The notes under the pieces are model-generated. The model did not search any database. It saw only the letters and a list, made by a program, of their open reading frames with translations, and had not been told where the DNA came from. From a virus, in IMG/VR virus record IMGVR_UViG_3300035181_001974: 64,000 bases of DNA; one strand, 5' to 3'. The position numbers and the translations under genes are program-made. Below are positions 3,740-36,038 of the stretch, piece by piece (the first letter of the stretch is position 1; every line of letters starts with the position of its first letter).

Positions 3740-4027
3740 GTGAAAAGTTCACGCTCGAGTCAGATCACAGATTGCAACATGTCTAAGATGAACTTTCTCA
3801 AAGGTCAACTGGTCACCTGTAAGACCAAAGGCGCCATCTACGAGGTACTCGAGGTCAAGAAACGGACGATGATCATCGGCCTCCGCGTTGCCCTGGCACC
3901 TTCACATCGGCGGAAGTCCGTTCGCAAGGTCCTGATCAGCCAGTGTCAGCTGGCGGTCCTAAATGACCTCCGTGAGACGGCGAGGACCCTTGAAGCGCTG
4001 TGCGCCCGAATGTTGAATGGACAGTGA
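3740..4027 (+). CDS. small SH3/KOW-like family protein (PGD-x-V family member)
   Basis: GQLVTCKTKGAIYEVLEV motif shared with ~15 other small ORFs. Confidence 0.4.
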   Translation: MKSSRSSQITDCNMSKMNFLKGQLVTCKTKGAIYEVLEVKKRTMIIGLRVALAPSHRRKSVRKVLISQCQLAVLNDLRETARTLEALCARMLNGQ

Positions 4028-4045
4028 TGTGACGATTGAATGCGT

Positions 4046-4640
4046 ATCATCATGAAAGATGATCGTAGAGTCACAATTCCATGCGATGAGTGTGGTCAAC
4101 CTAACACAGTGTGGTTGAATACGTACGAAGGGAATGTATGACGTAACGGACACTATCGATGTTGTACGTGTCGACCTCATAACAACTCAGCGCATTGGTC
4201 AGATCAAGCCATCAAAGATAAACACAGTCAATCGATGCGTTCGTCAGAAGCGTACTACGAAGCGATCAAACGTCGTAATATGTTTGGCGCCAAGAATGGC
4301 ATGTTGGATAGAGCGCACAGTGTTGAAACTCGTGAGAGAGGATATTACGGTCACGAACTGGTAAGTTGGGCCCAAGTGCCACAGCGTGGAAGGGCAGTAG
4401 GAGTTCTGTCACACGACGAGTAAAAGTTGTGTCAGATAAGGCATCACTGGTTTTCACGTGTGCTTGAGCGAGACAATTTGAAGTGTGTCAAATGTATGGT
4501 GACGACACGTTTAGATGCTCATCACATTGAGCAAATCGTGAAAATCATTGCCAGAATCACGAAAGACATGCAATTTAATTGCCAGAACTCAAGATCGAAT
4601 TTTGTGCATCTCATTCGGAGTACATCAAGCGTTACCTGTC
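4046..4640 (+). pseudogene. fragmented HNH homing-endonuclease-like gene in a low-GC island
   Basis: Zinc-finger start (PCDECGQP) and HNH-like DNLKCVKC...LDAHHI segments lie in three different frames; local GC is clearly lower than the flanks. Confidence 0.4.
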
Positions 4641-4649
4641 AACTGAGGA

Positions 4650-5825
4650 ATGAACATGCAGATCGTCTATGCAGCCGAAGAGGCGCCGGCTTCGTTTGAG
4701 AAGTCCATCTTTTTGGCGGGGCCTTCTCCCCGTTCTGATGCGCATTTGAATTGGCGACCGGATGCCCTTAAGCTCCTCGAAGAGATGGGCTATGATGGCG
4801 TCGTCTTCGTGCCGCTGCCCCGCGATGGTAAGTGGAACTGCGGCTTCGATCATCAGGTCGAATGGGAAAAGAAACACCTCGACATGAGCGACGTGGTCGT
4901 CTTCTGGGTTCCTCGCGACATGCAGGTGGCACCTGCCCTGACGACGAACGTCGAGTTCGGTATGTACTATGATGCCGGAAAGACGGTCCTGGGTTACCCG
5001 CCCGAGGCCTATAACATGCGCTACCTGGCGCACCGTGCTCGTCTCGAGGGCGTCCCAGTAGAGAGCACGCTCCAGAACACGCTGCTGCAGGCACTCGAGA
5101 GGACGAAGCACAAGGCACTTCGATTCGGCGGGGAACGTTCAGTTCCACTGCATATCTGGCACCAGCCTGCGTTCCGCTCGTGGCACGCGGCCCAGAGGGC
5201 TGTTGGTAATCGTTTAGACGGCGCACAGTTGCTGTGGTCGTTCCGCATTGGGCCCAACAAAGCAGTGACCTTCTGCTATGCCTTGAAGGTTGATGTCTAT
5301 GTGGCGGCCGAGAAACGCAACAAGACCAACGAGTTCATCTTCTCGCGGCCGGACGTCTTCGTCGTGGTGGCGTATCACAGGCCGGACTCCGATGTCCTTG
5401 GGACGAGGGTCGCCCTTGTCAAGGAGTTCCGCAGCTCTGTTCGCAACAATGCAGGCTTCGTATATGAGGCTCCTGGTGGTAGTTCGCTGAAGTTGAGTCA
5501 GGATGCCCGCGTGGTGGCGGCCCACGAGTTGGAAGAAGAGATGGGCATCAATATTGATCCCACGCGGCTACGTTACGTGGGCTCGCGGCAGATGTGTGCT
5601 GCCCTGTCGACCCATCATGGCGTGGTCTACGCTGTTGAGTTGACAGCACTTGAAATGAATCGCCTGGAGGACGAACACAGTTCCGGCGTCACTCACGGGA
5701 TCGCCAACGATACTGAGTTGACTTACGTGGAGGTGTACGACCTCGATGACCTCGTCGCCGGCAAAGTCTTTATCGATTGGTCGATGCTCGGCATCATCTT
5801 GGCCGCCACCAGTGGCTCGGGCTGA
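4650..5825 (+). CDS. fusion protein with an N-terminal nucleoside 2-deoxyribosyltransferase/Rcl-like domain and a C-terminal Nudix-like domain
   Basis: IFLAGPSP...VVFVPLP...DVVVFWVPRD...EFGMYYDAGK is an NDT/DNPH1-like fold motif set; AHELEEEMGI is a Nudix-box-like motif. Confidence 0.5.
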   Translation: MNMQIVYAAEEAPASFEKSIFLAGPSPRSDAHLNWRPDALKLLEEMGYDGVVFVPLPRDGKWNCGFDHQVEWEKKHLDMSDVVVFWVPRDMQVAPALTTNVEFGMYYDAGKTVLGYPPEAYNMRYLAHRARLEGVPVESTLQNTLLQALERTKHKALRFGGERSVPLHIWHQPAFRSWHAAQRAVGNRLDGAQLLWSFRIGPNKAVTFCYALKVDVYVAAEKRNKTNEFIFSRPDVFVVVAYHRPDSDVLGTRVALVKEFRSSVRNNAGFVYEAPGGSSLKLSQDARVVAAHELEEEMGINIDPTRLRYVGSRQMCAALSTHHGVVYAVELTALEMNRLEDEHSSGVTHGIANDTELTYVEVYDLDDLVAGKVFIDWSMLGIILAATSGSG

Positions 5826-5829
5826 TTCC

Positions 5830-33922: not shown

Positions 33923-34351
33923 TCATGGGGCGTTCTTGGTATTGCCCACCGTCATGTGAAACCCACCCAAGGCATCCTGGGGCGTGAACCGCGTGGGCTT
34001 CAGGCCCAACTCAATGCGAACCTGCTTCAGGAAGTCGCAGGAGACCGAGAGCCACCAGTAGGTCTCATCGTTGTAGACCCAAGGATCATACAGAAAGTCG
34101 ACGCGCTTTCCCTCGTAGCGCTTCCAGGCGTCCATGCGCGGACGCTCGTGACGAACGACAGTCACGTGAGGCGCATACTTCTGCGGCCTCACGGGGTAGT
34201 ATTTCGGGATCAAGGCCCGAGTGACCATGGCGATGCCCCAGTCGCACTCGAGGACGAGGCGCGGACCTTGGGTTCCCTGCGAGTATCGGAGGATCCCGTA
34301 TGATTCCCTGCAGTAGTTACCGGCATTAAGGTTGTTGCTATAGGGCGTCAT
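33923..34351 (-). CDS. 2H phosphoesterase superfamily protein (LigT/CPDase-like)
   Basis: Two H-x-T-x motifs flanked by hydrophobics (PHVTVV, FHMTVG) ~75 aa apart; ~142 aa. Confidence 0.5.
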   Translation of the reverse strand: MTPYSNNLNAGNYCRESYGILRYSQGTQGPRLVLECDWGIAMVTRALIPKYYPVRPQKYAPHVTVVRHERPRMDAWKRYEGKRVDFLYDPWVYNDETYWWLSVSCDFLKQVRIELGLKPTRFTPQDALGGFHMTVGNTKNAP

Positions 34352-34856
34352 GGGTCTTCAGAGCGGGTGCCATAGGGCATCGCAGCCGGCAGAGGTCTTC
34401 AAATTCGAACCTGACCTTCTTGTCAGAAGAGTTTCTACAGGTTCGCGGTACAGAATCCCGTCGATGCAACCAGCGTACTCGCGGGTGATGCTCCAATGCG
34501 AAGGAGCAGATCCATGAGCTTATCTTAACACGGGAGGCCGTGAAGATTCACCGACCTAAAAAGCACACCATCGCCTCGGGGACCCATGTGACTTCGACGG
34601 GTTTGCAGCTCACGGTCAGGAAGCGGGTGCGGCAATTGCCACCTGTTCGATTGTGTCAGGCACGGTGGACAATCTCCCACTCAGAATCAAGAAAATAGTC
34701 GCCTTGTTTAGGCTCCACGTGCCCGTCAGTCACCACAGTCTAATGACTATGTGAAAACACCAGACCTTCACAATGGGTCAGACCGTCTGAGCAACATCAT
34801 CTGGAACCAGAAGTTGGTGCTCATCGGCATGAGCATTGGGCATGCCCTTCATCAGG

Positions 34857-35249
34857 CTACCGCTCTTGATCTTCAAGAGCCATAACACAGAACTGCGTCT
34901 CGGATTCAAAGTCACCCGAGATCATCTGAATGCTACCATCAGTGTATATCGTCATCAGATGAACCGTGACGACTTCTTCGGGCTCCACGGGCATGCCATA
35001 CTGGTCTACTTCGCCAACTACTCCTTTGATCCAAGGTTCAGACCGTGAGATGACGATGCGCGAGGACCACCTACGATTGTGGGGAAGCTCGCAGAACTCG
35101 TTCTTGTCCCAAGGGCGGGACGGGATGATCATGTCACCCGGCATCAACTTTGAGGCTGCGACCATCTGCTTGAAATTCGAAACTGACTCGGCCACCCGCG
35201 GGTCAGCGGTGGGCTCGGAAAGCTTGGATTCCTTCATCATAGGGCGCAC
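34857..35249 (-). CDS. small PGD-x-V family protein
   Basis: LMPGDMIIPSRPW...IKGVVGEV. Confidence 0.35.
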   Translation of the reverse strand: MRPMMKESKLSEPTADPRVAESVSNFKQMVAASKLMPGDMIIPSRPWDKNEFCELPHNRRWSSRIVISRSEPWIKGVVGEVDQYGMPVEPEEVVTVHLMTIYTDGSIQMISGDFESETQFCVMALEDQER

Positions 35250-35795
35250 CGTTTAACTATTATCCACCGTGGACCACTTGTATCACTCACAGGATTTCTT
35301 GTTATTCAGCTGCTCTGAGTTCTGGGCGCGGACAAAATCTCAATATCGAGAAATGATCTTGGCCTTGTCAGTCAGGAACCCGCGCTTGATCCTGACATCA
35401 TAGTTGCTGATGCAGACTCAACAGGTGACTGGCATGTTCACACTCAACAGGGACACAGGTCAGTAAATGAACTGAACGAAACCTGTTGGGCAGCTTTAAT
35501 CTTGAGGAAGCAGATCACCAGTGATGATCACTGAATTGCACTCTCGCCGCGCGCCTCGGCCCGCGTGCCTGCACTCGCGGGCATGAGGGGGACTAATATG
35601 TGGCAGTGTCACTGGCGAAGTGGACATTTGGTATGGACTTTGGGCCCAAGGATAAGGAAATCCCGCGGGAACAAAGGCTGTCCTGTGAGATGGTGCGACA
35701 TTTGTCTAAGAAGAATAGATCGGGCCTTAGCTCCAGTCGCGGAGGGCACTTTTTGCTGCTGGTGCACACCACATGATAAATCTGGGCCGCGTAAA

Positions 35796-36038
35796 TCACT
35801 GATGATGCAGCAGTTCCCAGACGTGCATGATCTGGCGCATCCCCTGAGCGTCTTCCACCAGCACCATCTGCCCCTCCACTACTACCACCACCAGTGGCTC
35901 GCGAGCTGGCTGCCAGATGGGCGTAACGCGATCGCCTGGCGAAAAACTGGGTAGCAGCTGCTCCTCCGGGGCAGGGACCTGTTGATTTTGGCTCCCGCCC
36001 CGGAGGCTCCTGATCAGATCGCGGATGCGCTTGATCAC
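35796..36038 (-). CDS. small PGD-x-V family protein with leader-like N-terminus (MIKRIRDLIRSLRGG)
   Basis: SPGDRVTPIWQP...PLVVVVVEGQMVLV...HVWE. Confidence 0.4.
   Translation of the reverse strand: MIKRIRDLIRSLRGGSQNQQVPAPEEQLLPSFSPGDRVTPIWQPAREPLVVVVVEGQMVLVEDAQGMRQIMHVWELLHHQ

What the first reader, a model, noticed from the sequence alone, without database searches (positions are those of the whole stretch)
3740..36038. Expanded family of ~16 small (75-130 aa) proteins sharing PGD-x-V ... G-x-V ... V-x-W
Members cluster at 17439..18836 (three + strand then three - strand, convergent) and 25991..28163, with singletons at 3740, 34857 and 35796. Two longer paralogs (26263..26751 and 28170..28670) carry the motif N-terminally plus a shared C-terminal domain. 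The pattern, with a Pro-Gly turn and alternating hydrophobics, suggests a small SH3/KOW/Tudor-like beta-barrel. So many divergent copies in one genome suggest a diversifying binder family, for example host-factor inhibitors or anti-defence decoys.
Basis: seen in the sequence. Interest (0 to 1): 0.55.

Follow-up and report, generated by a model that had tools for sequence, protein, structure and literature searches.

The report
Small beta-barrel proteins carrying capsid-protein fragments
A huge uncultured phage carries many tiny beta-barrel proteins that do not form one provable family, and three of them are fused to short conserved pieces of a T4-type major capsid protein, a conserved arrangement I could not find described, whose function is unknown.

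Summary
The ORFs exist at the stated coordinates, and the N-terminal P-G-D/T-x-V motif is far more frequent than chance: 16 occurrences against 1.5 expected. A single 16-member family cannot be shown. HMM, profile-profile and shuffle-calibrated all-vs-all tests recover only sub-families.

- FB: 28170, 26263, 25991 and also 29446.
- NA: 27577, 27111, 26755.
- 27906, possibly with 25048.
- Weak links to 18376 and 18089.

The main result was unforeseen. NA proteins are chimeras of this module and conserved segments of a T4-type (gp23) major capsid protein.
- 26755 carries the N-arm/first-strand segment, the region that holds the Gol peptide in T4.
- 27577 carries a P-domain strand plus the start of the spine helix.
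- 27111 tentatively carries the rest of the helix.

A relative with 29-47% identical small proteins keeps the cassette next to the same vault-protein gene and adds a fourth chimera with the capsid C-terminal hairpin. An unrelated low-GC phage fused the first segment to a different partner. Function is untested; I favour capsid-peptide mimicry.

The parts
27577..27912 (-). NA-family chimera, 111 aa. It has an N-terminal beta module (PGDMV...GLIISV...VTVLWS) and, at aa 75-111 (nt 27580-27690), MCP 'fragment B'. Fragment B is a P-domain strand plus the start of the spine helix and aligns to T6 gp23 250-286.
   Evidence: Pfam Gp23 2.1e-8. PHROG 138 major head protein 1.5e-7. blastp to three MCPs 5e-9 to 7e-12. 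hhalign 4e-7. Orthologue L010:860-1381.
27111..27401 (-). NA-family protein, 96 aa. It has the beta module (PGDVV...GMVVAI...ASVLWT) followed by a long C-terminal helix. The helix (aa ~66-95, nt 27117-27206) tentatively corresponds to the second half of the MCP spine helix.
   Evidence: AF2 model with strands at 2-6, 10-12, 31-34, 37-48, 51-56 and helices at 60-81, 84-95. Orthologues P0010 (39% identity) and L010:1678-1971. All four orthologues best-match the MCP HMM states directly after fragment B (shuffle p 0-0.07). hhalign gives only E 0.019.
26755..27114 (-). NA-family chimera, 119 aa. It has the beta module (PGTLV...GIIIAN...ASVLWT) and, at aa 68-113 (nt 26776-26913), MCP 'fragment A'. 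Fragment A is the end of the N-arm plus the first conserved strand (...VSVQPMSQPSDLVFYLDYKYG). In T4 this part of gp23 holds the Gol peptide.
   Evidence: Pfam Gp23 4.5e-7. blastp to MCPs 2e-12 and 8e-12. hhalign 5e-13. Orthologue L010:2339-2995.
28170..28670 (-). FB family, long form (166 aa ORF; public gene call is 161 aa). It is an SH3-like barrel with a basic insertion, followed by a C-terminal helix.
   Evidence: blastp 9e-14 to 26263. Profile search finds P0011-P0018. Alignments.
26263..26751 (-). FB family, long form (162 aa ORF; public gene call is 153 aa).
   Evidence: Orthologue P0018 = L010:3537-3992, 34% identity.
25991..26266 (-). FB family, short form (91 aa): the uninterrupted barrel plus helix.
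29446..29940 (-).
   Evidence: Smith-Waterman against 25991, p 1.6e-7. hhalign against the FB profile, E 6e-4, probability 28%, covering both halves.
27906..28163 (-). Separate small family (85 aa; PPGTMM...IGWYSTAPGY). Its orthologue in the relative is L010:1412-1681.
   Evidence: A possible paralogue is 25048-25293 (p 1.9e-3).
17439..18836 (.). Convergent cluster of six small ORFs: 17439-17666, 17648-17878 and 17823-18068 on +; 18089-18358, 18376-18645 and 18624-18836 on -. They carry G[DE]-x-V or PGD motifs. Relationship to NA or FB is unproven.
   Evidence: 18376 against 27577 gives p 3.6e-5, but the match rests on an identical PRPGDMV heptapeptide. 18089 against 18376 gives p 3.6e-4. Leave-one-out HMM z-scores are mostly 1-2.5. 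ORF 18089-18358 is not called by public gene callers.
34857..36038 (-). Singletons 34857-35249 (PGDMI) and 35796-36038 (PGDRV). They carry the motif but have no demonstrable family.
   Evidence: The pair 35796/25048 gives p 1.6e-4, but the alignment is weak on inspection.
3740..4027 (+). It lacks both PGD and W, and membership is not supported.
30710..33289 (-). Major-vault-protein-like gene (859 aa). It is the conserved syntenic neighbour upstream of the small-gene cassette in this phage and in the relative L010.
   Evidence: Pfam MVP_shoulder 3e-28 plus Vault repeats. The first ORF of L010 is 63% identical to its C-terminus.

Best explanation
Shown. The region is a fast-evolving accessory-gene operon, mostly on the minus strand from about 24.6 to 36.7 kb, of an uncultured huge phage with a genome of at least 309 kb. 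It is packed with small beta-barrel proteins that fall into at least three separately demonstrable families.
- FB proteins are SH3-like barrels with a C-terminal helix. The long forms carry a basic loop insertion.
- NA proteins are chimeras. Each has a conserved N-terminal hairpin and a ~45-residue beta module (PG-x-x-V ... G-h-h-h-A ... V-L-W-S/T), fused in frame to one conserved segment of a T4-type (gp23, HK97-fold) major capsid protein.
- Across this phage and its relative, the appended segments are the N-arm/first strand (the region holding Gol in T4), a P-domain strand with the start of the spine helix, tentatively the rest of the spine helix, and the C-terminal P-domain hairpin.
- By the T4 structure these segments are the N-arm plus the elements of the capsid protein's peripheral (P) domain.

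Inferred mechanism. The beta module is a soluble carrier, and the capsid peptide is the working part. The proteins would act as molecular mimics of the most conserved, hardest-to-mutate surfaces of the capsid protein. They would compete with newly made capsid protein for whatever binds those surfaces. The most likely targets are host capsid-sensing immunity or host factors such as EF-Tu or chaperonin. If so, they are counter-defence or host-takeover proteins rather than virion parts.
For: Capsid fragments:
- Pfam Gp23 hits above the curated cut-off for 26755 and 27577, and a PHROG major head protein hit.
- blastp to three MCPs at 5e-9 to 2e-12.
- hhalign against a six-MCP alignment: 5e-13 (A), 4e-7 (B) and 1.3e-16 (C, in the relative).
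- No full MCP in the window or in about 13 kb of extra flank on the two sides together.

Conservation:
- Relative L010/L011 keeps MVP, then the small-gene cassette, with orthologues of 27577, 27906, 27111, 26755 and 26263 at 29-47% identity. The fragment start points are the same. It has an extra chimera carrying the MCP C-terminal hairpin.
- A second relative, L009, has an FB gene followed directly by the 27111 orthologue.
- ORFs are identical in four other metagenomes.

Independent capture: a phage with 36% GC (L008, P0006) has the same fragment A fused to an unrelated C-terminal domain.

Accessory character:
- Neighbours are IF-1, GroEL, NUDIX, ADP-ribosylglycohydrolase, an L7/L12 domain protein, MVP and glycosyltransferases. 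No structural genes are present.
- Gene order and content differ between relatives.
- 17 of 23 SNPs against L006 fall in 134 bp at the 27111/26755 junction.

Structural mapping: in T4 gp23, residues 292/306/307 lie in the spine helix, 455 in the P-domain sheet, 457-461 in the P loop, 268-287 near the short P-domain helix, and Met98 in the N-arm (PMC9546572).

Background:
- Gol is a 29-residue peptide in the first quarter of gp23. It is the most conserved part of gp23 and binds EF-Tu (PMC3014915).
- Capsid proteins are recurrent triggers of bacterial immunity (PMC9712102; PMC11312562).

Fold.
Against: - No experiment or co-occurrence analysis ties these proteins to any defence system, so function is pure inference.
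- A peptide that mimics an immune trigger could activate the sensor instead of blocking it. The Gol peptide alone activates Lit.
- The phage's own capsid gene was not recovered. I therefore cannot say whether the fragments derive from it or how similar they are to it.
- Fragment C is absent from this window, so a complete 'P-domain set' is not conserved.
- The spine-helix assignment for 27111 is not statistically significant (hhalign E 0.019).
- The phage GroEL gene lies 9 kb away, and the gp31/GroEL dependence of gp23 maps to the same P-domain elements. An assembly or folding role is therefore a serious alternative.
Confidence: 0.4

Rival explanations
1. All ~16 or more PGD-motif ORFs are one expanded, rapidly diversifying family of SH3-like binders, made by serial duplication, that inhibit host factors. 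The capsid fragments would be secondary additions to a few members.
For: Strong motif enrichment confined to the N-termini of small proteins in about 30 kb. Excess of low p-values in the all-vs-all test. Leave-one-out HMM z-scores are positive for 14 of 16 members. The FB model is an SH3-like barrel, and the NA model weakly matches a circularly permuted SH3. If the NA N-terminal hairpin supplies strands 4-5, then PGD...G-h-h...VLW would be collinear with strands 1-3 of FB.
Against: HMMs enriched with orthologues recover no cross-family members at E<0.1. No profile-profile comparison exceeds 10% probability. The best cross-cluster link, 18376/27577, is only a shared heptapeptide. 'GD-x-V' at the start of a strand is common in small barrels; the IF-1 homologue at 20560-20892 also has PGDRV. 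Convergence therefore cannot be excluded.
Confidence: 0.3
2. The NA proteins are capsid morphogenesis factors. They would be trans-acting P-domain pieces that chaperone folding of the phage's own capsid protein, perhaps with the phage GroEL, or that tune inter-capsomer angles and head size in a very large capsid.
For: The fragments are exactly the P-domain/N-arm elements where T4 gp31-bypass and head-length mutations map (PMC9546572). A phage GroEL lies at 15430-17037. The fragments are under purifying selection in two lineages.
Against: They sit in an accessory region with no structural genes over about 77 kb. Gene content and order vary between close relatives, with C missing here and B missing at the equivalent place in L009. 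They evolve faster than the neighbouring MVP gene, at 29-47% against 63% identity. Nothing similar turned up in 50,697 sequenced phages.
Confidence: 0.2
3. The proteins are inter-phage weapons. The capsid-peptide chimeras would be dominant-negative poisons that intercalate into capsomers of co-infecting T4-like competitors.
For: The peptides match the consensus of many T4-type MCPs. It is established that huge phages carry systems aimed at competing phages (Al-Shayeb et al. 2020, PMC7162821, listed but not read in detail).
Against: The phage's own capsid protein is probably of the same type and would be poisoned too. There is no direct evidence.
Confidence: 0.08
4. Genomic debris. The capsid-like stretches would be decaying remnants of a duplicated capsid gene, broken up by insertions or mobile small genes, with no function of their own.
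For: The order B, helix, C, A in the relative is a cyclic permutation of the order in a capsid gene. Homing endonuclease genes occur in these genomes: HNH at 60278-60676 and GIY-YIG in L008.
Against: The ORFs are intact with identical fragment start points in relatives that share only 29-47% identity. Each fragment is in frame behind a homologous module and is translationally coupled through 4-nt overlaps. The fragments remain close to the MCP consensus. The same fragment was captured independently in a 36% GC phage.
Confidence: 0.07

Closest known systems
SH3-like small beta-barrels (Spt5/NusG KOW, Tudor, PWWP, KapB, NdhS, HspQ)
   Different: There is no sequence match to any Pfam or PHROG family. 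FB proteins have an extra C-terminal amphipathic helix, and the long forms have a basic loop insertion. The NA module matches only weakly and may have a permuted strand order.
T4-type major capsid protein gp23 (Pfam PF07068; HK97 fold)
   Same: 26755 and 27577, and in the relative the 124-aa and 218-aa proteins, contain segments with significant, collinear similarity to the most conserved gp23 stretches.
   Different: Only about 36-58 residues each, with no A-domain or insertion domain. They are fused to an unrelated beta module, encoded as separate genes in non-capsid order, and lie outside any structural module.
T4 Gol peptide / Lit protease / EF-Tu system
   Same: Fragment A covers the most conserved stretch in the first quarter of gp23. 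That is how the Gol region is described (PMC3014915). Gol works as an isolated short peptide that binds EF-Tu.
   Different: Gol is part of the capsid protein itself, not a separately encoded protein. The exact Gol residues (about 93-122, from memory) could not be verified here. Neither Lit nor EF-Tu binding was tested.
Phage anti-defence decoys that compete with a structural-protein trigger (for example DSAD1 against DSR2)
   Same: The concept is the same: a small phage protein occupies an immune sensor that otherwise recognises a virion protein (PMC11087589 abstract).
   Different: DSAD1 is not reported there as a fragment of the trigger. In the papers I searched I found no decoy built from pieces of the capsid protein.
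'Genes in pieces' created by mobile endonuclease insertion in T4-like phages (T4 genes 39/60; Aeh1 nrdA, the latter from my own knowledge)
   Same: An essential-gene sequence is found as several separate ORFs. T4 gene 39/60 split by mobA is described in PMC3014915.
   Different: In that case the pieces add up to a complete functional protein. Here they cover only about 170 of about 520 residues, each is fused to the same extra module, and no endonuclease lies between them.

Membership tests
Single 'PGD-x-V ... G-x-V ... V-x-W' family of ~16 (as proposed) | Statistically significant sequence relationship linking all members | tested here: not met
   HMM searches, hhalign all-vs-all and shuffle-calibrated Smith-Waterman recover only sub-families: FB x4, NA x3, and 27906 with or without 25048. 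Links to 18376 and 18089 are weak.
Single 'PGD-x-V ... G-x-V ... V-x-W' family of ~16 (as proposed) | Motif more frequent than chance | tested here: met
   16 occurrences observed against 1.5 expected. 12 N-terminal occurrences in small proteins against 0.32 expected. No shuffle out of 5000 reaches the observed values.
SH3-like / KOW / Tudor small beta-barrel fold | Five-stranded barrel with SH3 topology in a confident model | tested here: met
SH3-like / KOW / Tudor small beta-barrel fold | Same fold in the NA module | tested here: inconclusive
SH3-like / KOW / Tudor small beta-barrel fold | Same fold in cluster 17439-18836 and the singletons | not tested
KOW / Tudor / other named sequence families | Match to the family's Pfam model | tested here: not met
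   No such Pfam hit at E<=1 for any of the 16 ORFs. No PHROG hit either, apart from major head protein for two of them.
gp23-type major capsid protein (PF07068) | Significant similarity to the family model | tested here: met
   26755 scores 30.0 bits and 27577 scores 34.4 bits against a cut-off of 24.4. hhalign gives 5e-13 and 4e-7.
gp23-type major capsid protein (PF07068) | Complete HK97 fold (N-arm, E-loop/insertion-domain linkers, P and A domains; about 450-550 aa) | tested here: not met
   Only profile positions 4-48 and 135-170 of 376 are present, in proteins of 119 and 111 aa. These proteins contain capsid fragments; they are not capsid proteins.
Inteins / split inteins (considered because capsid pieces follow a beta-rich module) | Conserved nucleophile at the module start, His-Asn plus nucleophile at the module-extein junction, and pieces that add up to a whole protein | tested here: not met
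   The alignment of eight NA modules shows no conserved Cys/Ser/Thr at the start and no HN at the junction (it reads VLW-S/T-x-x-P). The fragments stop at stop codons without an N-intein. They do not tile the whole capsid protein, covering only about 170 of about 520 residues.
Diversity-generating retroelement target (considered for the SNP hot-spot) | Substitutions restricted to adenine-templated positions | tested here: not met
   The 17 clustered differences at 27072-27205 are mostly transitions of all kinds. This fits recombination with a diverged relative.
GroES/Cpn10 or gp31 co-chaperonin (considered because of the adjacent GroEL and a GD-x-V motif) | Match to the Cpn10 model | tested here: not met
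   No Cpn10 hit at E<=1 for the cluster-1 ORFs or for the GroEL neighbours 15111-15392 and 17034-17417.

The most novel reading that the evidence does not exclude
Some huge phages encode a modular 'capsid-epitope display' cassette. A common small beta module is fused, gene by gene, to each of the most conserved N-arm and P-domain peptides of the T4-type major capsid protein. These proteins would act in trans, either as decoys or sponges for capsid-sensing host immunity and capsid-binding host factors (EF-Tu, chaperonin), or by co-assembling into a P-domain look-alike. This would be a class of phage accessory protein I could not find described. The same first peptide was captured independently in an unrelated low-GC phage, which suggests that the free-standing peptide itself is the selected function.
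Probability: 0.3. Interest if true: 0.85.

Novelty: new variant of a known kind. Interest (0 to 1): 0.62.

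Why it matters
Capsid proteins are among the commonest triggers of bacterial anti-phage immunity because phages cannot easily mutate them (PMC9712102, PMC11312562). A phage that separately expresses the least mutable capsid peptides on a small carrier would be using a strategy I did not find described, whether for evading, saturating or exploiting whatever recognises those peptides. It would also mark which capsid surfaces matter. If the proteins instead assist capsid folding or size control, they bear on how very large capsids are built. 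In either case the cassette gives defined, short, expressible constructs for direct tests. Separately, the work shows that a visually convincing 16-member family dissolves into several small families under formal testing.

Tried and rejected
Searches that found nothing or added nothing:
- Megablast of 20 kb against 50,697 phage genomes: no match.
- The search for related loci in IMG/VR and JGI metagenomes, with the 781-aa neighbour and with the 27111 alignment: nothing.
- Word-indexed search with the three bare N-modules: no candidates.
- Exhaustive phmmer of 27111 against 1.84 billion representatives: only a near-identical copy of the query itself and one true homologue (P0010). Two repeat-protein hits, P0008 and P0009, were judged compositional noise.
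- Degenerate DNA pattern for VQPMSQPS-x-LVFY in IMG/VR: 0 hits.
- tblastn of the L008 chimera against phage genomes: only bona fide capsid genes, one place per record.
- Walking outward from both window ends to find the phage's own capsid gene: more accessory genes, no MCP. I abandoned this.
- AFDB50 fold search: library unavailable.
- BFVD search with the NA model: nothing significant.
- tRNA and Rfam scans: only a tRNA cluster at the right end.
- Promoter and terminator scan of the cassette: not above shuffle expectation.

Ideas rejected:
- Chance motif.
- Assembly artefact: the sequence is identical in four other data sets.
- Intein or split intein, DGR target, and GroES-like co-chaperonin (see the membership tests).
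- Similarity of FB to capsid fragments A or C: hhalign E 0.21, not significant.
- The idea that the NA module is itself homologous to the capsid region preceding each fragment. This is impossible because the modules are homologous to each other while the fragments come from different parts of the capsid protein.
- ORF 27379-27564 as a gene. It is low-complexity, overlaps 27111-27401 and is never called.

Codon-usage scoring did not discriminate small genes well.

Full report
CONTEXT. The window has 55-61% GC and no nucleotide match in 50,697 phage genomes. Its genes identify it as part of a huge phage:
- a chaperonin (15430-17037);
- a major-vault-protein (MVP)-like gene (30710-33289);
- an IF-1 homologue (20560-20892) and a ribosomal L7/L12 C-terminal-domain protein (55051-55635);
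- ADP-ribosylglycohydrolase, NUDIX, a papain-like protease, a GH25 lysozyme, AAA ATPases and glycosyltransferases.

The same sequence occurs, 99.75-100% identical, in four other public assemblies. One protein of the region is carried on a contig of 309,481 bp. No virion structural gene was found in the window or in about 13 kb of extra flank.

IS IT ONE FAMILY? This is not demonstrable.
- Pairwise blastp shows one clear pair, 26263/28170 at 9e-14.
- An HMM from the three most alike members finds only 18376 (E 2e-4), through its PRPGDMV stretch. Everything else is at shuffle level.
- A leave-one-out HMM test, with controls that keep the motif but shuffle the rest, gives mostly z = 1-2.5. This is a weak but consistently positive signal.
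- After adding orthologues from other contigs, HMMs of each sub-family recover no additional window members at E<0.1.
- All profile-profile comparisons between sub-families and singletons stay below 10% probability.
- In a Smith-Waterman all-vs-all test with Gumbel fits to shuffles, 5 of 190 pairs pass Bonferroni: 26263/28170, 25991/29446, 18376/27577, 25048/35796 and 26755/27111. The pair 18089/18376 falls just short.

The defensible units are:
- FB: 28170, 26263, 25991, 29446.
- NA: 27577, 27111, 26755.
- A 27906 family, with an orthologue in a relative and perhaps 25048 as paralogue.
- A probable 18089/18376 pair.

The excess of low p-values (17% below 0.05) fits a loose superfamily, but it is partly built in by selecting on the motif. 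ORF 3740-4027 has neither PGD nor W.

THE UNEXPECTED PART: CAPSID FRAGMENTS. [quoted passage not shown] It placed the last 36 residues of 27577 on positions 135-170 (2.1e-8). Both scores are above the curated cut-off, and PHROGs agrees.

Direct comparison with capsid proteins of T6, a Flavobacterium phage and a 484-kb uncultured phage gives E-values of 5e-9 to 2e-12. Profile comparison with a six-MCP alignment gives 5e-13 and 4e-7.
- 26755 carries '...VSPIIRQTFQPSLIKKLVSVQPMSQPSDLVFYLDYKYG'. This aligns to T6 gp23 from about residue 87 (104 by blastp) to 139, the end of the N-arm plus the first conserved strand.
- 27577 carries 'QIQAQTRKLKVRWSPELAQDIKAHHEIDA'. This aligns to T6 gp23 250-286.
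- The C-terminal helix of 27111 best-matches, in all four orthologues, the MCP HMM states directly following fragment B. The match is not significant on its own (hhalign E 0.019; shuffle p 0-0.07).

COMPARATIVE EVIDENCE THAT THIS IS A DESIGNED, CONSERVED ARRANGEMENT. An FB homologue (P0018) led to contigs L010 and L011 from another metagenome. L010 starts with the C-terminus of an MVP-like gene that is 63% identical to the window's. It then encodes, in order:
1. a PGD small protein;
2. an orthologue of 27577 (module plus fragment B);
3. an orthologue of 27906;
4. an orthologue of 27111;
5. a 124-aa protein made of the same module plus the capsid C-terminal hairpin 'GYVYAPHIPMQVTPTVFKPEDFAPRKGIMTRYAK...YYG' (hhalign 1.3e-16; Pfam 1.7e-7);
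6. an orthologue of 26755 (module plus fragment A; Pfam 9.7e-10);
7. two FB genes and more PGD ORFs.

Orthologous small proteins are 29-47% identical, and the capsid segments start at the same points. A third contig, L009, has an FB gene followed directly by the 27111 orthologue P0010. The cassette is therefore conserved, but its content and order shift: fragment C is missing in this window, and B is missing at that place in L009.

Independently, a phage with 36% GC (L008) encodes a small protein, P0006. In it the same fragment A ('NWSAVALPIIK...LVSVQPMSQPSGLVFYLDYKYG') is fused to a different, unrelated C-terminal domain.

No such free-standing fragments turned up in 50,697 sequenced phages. 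Every hit there lay under an annotated capsid gene or in an unannotated metagenomic record, and there was one matching place per record.

WHAT THE FRAGMENTS ARE IN THE CAPSID PROTEIN. The T4 head structure paper (PMC9546572) gives these locations in gp23:
- residue 455 in the P-domain sheet;
- residues 457-461 in the P loops at the quasi-threefold axes;
- Met98 in the N-terminal arm, which clusters in space with His282 and Met284.

Fragments B and C, and tentatively the helix piece, are therefore the elements of the peripheral (P) domain, and fragment A is the adjoining N-arm. The same positions carry the gp31/GroEL-bypass and head-length mutations.

The T4 review (PMC3014915) describes the Gol peptide as a 29-residue stretch in the first quarter of gp23. 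It is the most conserved part of the protein and binds EF-Tu domains II/III. Fragment A lies in that region. The exact residue overlap rests on my memory (about 93-122) and was not verified.

HOW IT MOST LIKELY WORKS (INFERENCE). Several features are typical of host-interaction or counter-defence loci rather than morphogenesis genes:
- the proteins sit in an accessory region;
- they evolve faster than their neighbour;
- gene content changes between relatives;
- 17 of 23 differences from L006 fall within 134 bp at the 27111/26755 junction, mostly transitions, so this is not DGR-like;
- the same peptide was captured independently elsewhere.

Capsid proteins are frequent triggers of bacterial immunity: CapRel, Lit, staphylococcal Thoeris, and by escape-mutant evidence PifA, Pycsar and CBASS (PMC9712102; PMC11312562). 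I therefore favour mimicry, with confidence about 0.4. In this reading the beta module is a carrier, and the appended peptide competes with nascent capsid protein for a host sensor or host factor.

The main weakness is that a trigger mimic might activate the sensor rather than block it. The main rival is a role in capsid folding or size control, given the phage GroEL and the P-domain mapping (about 0.2). Dominant-negative attack on competing T4-like phages (about 0.08) and non-functional gene debris (about 0.07) are less likely. The debris idea is contradicted by intact, in-frame, translationally coupled ORFs with conserved boundaries across deep divergence.

COMPARISON WITH KNOWN SYSTEMS AND NOVELTY.
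- FB proteins are new, unannotated members of the SH3-like barrel fold class.
- NA proteins contain capsid-protein fragments but fail the membership test for capsid proteins. They have no complete HK97 fold.
- They are not inteins, DGR targets or co-chaperonins.
- Literature searches found no report of small phage proteins built from capsid-protein pieces.
- Phage MVP genes have been reported (bioRxiv 10.1101/2023.11.10.566534, listed).

I rate the whole finding as a new variant of known kinds: small barrel accessory proteins and mimicry. A categorically new reading remains possible at about 0.3.

LIMITS.
- The phage's own capsid gene was not found.
- Only two structure models were possible.
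- The cluster at 17439-18836 and the singletons have no orthologues in hand and remain unclassified.
- Nothing about function was tested.

Noticed in passing
window 30710-33289 (-); L010 1-393: An 859-aa major-vault-protein-like gene (MVP shoulder 3e-28, Vault repeats, SPFH). It is conserved (63% identity at the C-terminus) and syntenic with the small-gene cassette in a relative. Phage MVPs have been reported in a 2023 preprint, but a link to capsid-fragment proteins has not.
   Followed up: partly
window 27072-27205: 17 of the 23 differences between the window and the 99.75%-identical contig L006 fall in this 134-bp patch, which spans the 27111 C-terminus and the 26755 N-terminus. The changes are mostly transitions and many alter the amino acid. 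It looks like a recombination patch from a diverged relative.
   Followed up: partly
L008 9884-10345 (Logan SRR27372372, 36% GC): An unrelated low-GC phage has a small protein (P0006) made of capsid fragment A plus an unrelated Trp-rich C-terminal domain. The capsid-like sequence extends upstream of the called start codon. A GIY-YIG endonuclease lies 5 kb away.
   Followed up: partly
window 15430-17037 (+), 15111-15392, 17034-17417: A phage-encoded GroEL/Cpn60 (2.8e-69) with no detectable Cpn10/gp31-type co-chaperonin next to it. The 127-aa downstream ORF looks membrane-associated.
   Followed up: partly
window 20560-20892 (+) and 55051-55635 (+): Translation-related genes: an IF-1/eIF-1A homologue (1e-21) with an N-terminal extension, and a 194-aa protein with a ribosomal L7/L12 C-terminal domain (1.5e-10). 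L7/L12 is known to be the ribosomal docking site for EF-Tu and EF-G. This may be relevant if fragment A binds EF-Tu.
   Followed up: no
window 4650-5825, 10095-10994, 11783-12757, 33923-34351: A nucleoside 2-deoxyribosyltransferase-like protein, a NUDIX protein, an ADP-ribosylglycohydrolase and a weak 2H-phosphoesterase hit (E 0.0016, below cut-off). These are enzyme types that could degrade nucleotide or ADP-ribose immune signals.
   Followed up: no
window 63486-63979 (+): A tRNA cluster at the right end of the window: tRNA-Ile(GAT) and two tRNA-Tyr(GTA).
   Followed up: no
window 60278-60676 (+): A 132-aa HNH endonuclease gene (Pfam HNH in the public annotation of the identical contig L015). 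It lies among glycosyltransferase and unknown genes.
   Followed up: no
window 7704-9419 (+): A GH25 lysozyme directly followed by a papain-family (C1) cysteine protease. This is an unusual pairing for a lysis or cell-wall module.
   Followed up: no
window 26263-26751 and 28170-28670 (-): The loop insertions of the long FB proteins are strongly basic and low-complexity, for example TTRRTTTRTRTKFNWRDNSKSQ. This suggests possible nucleic-acid binding.
   Followed up: no
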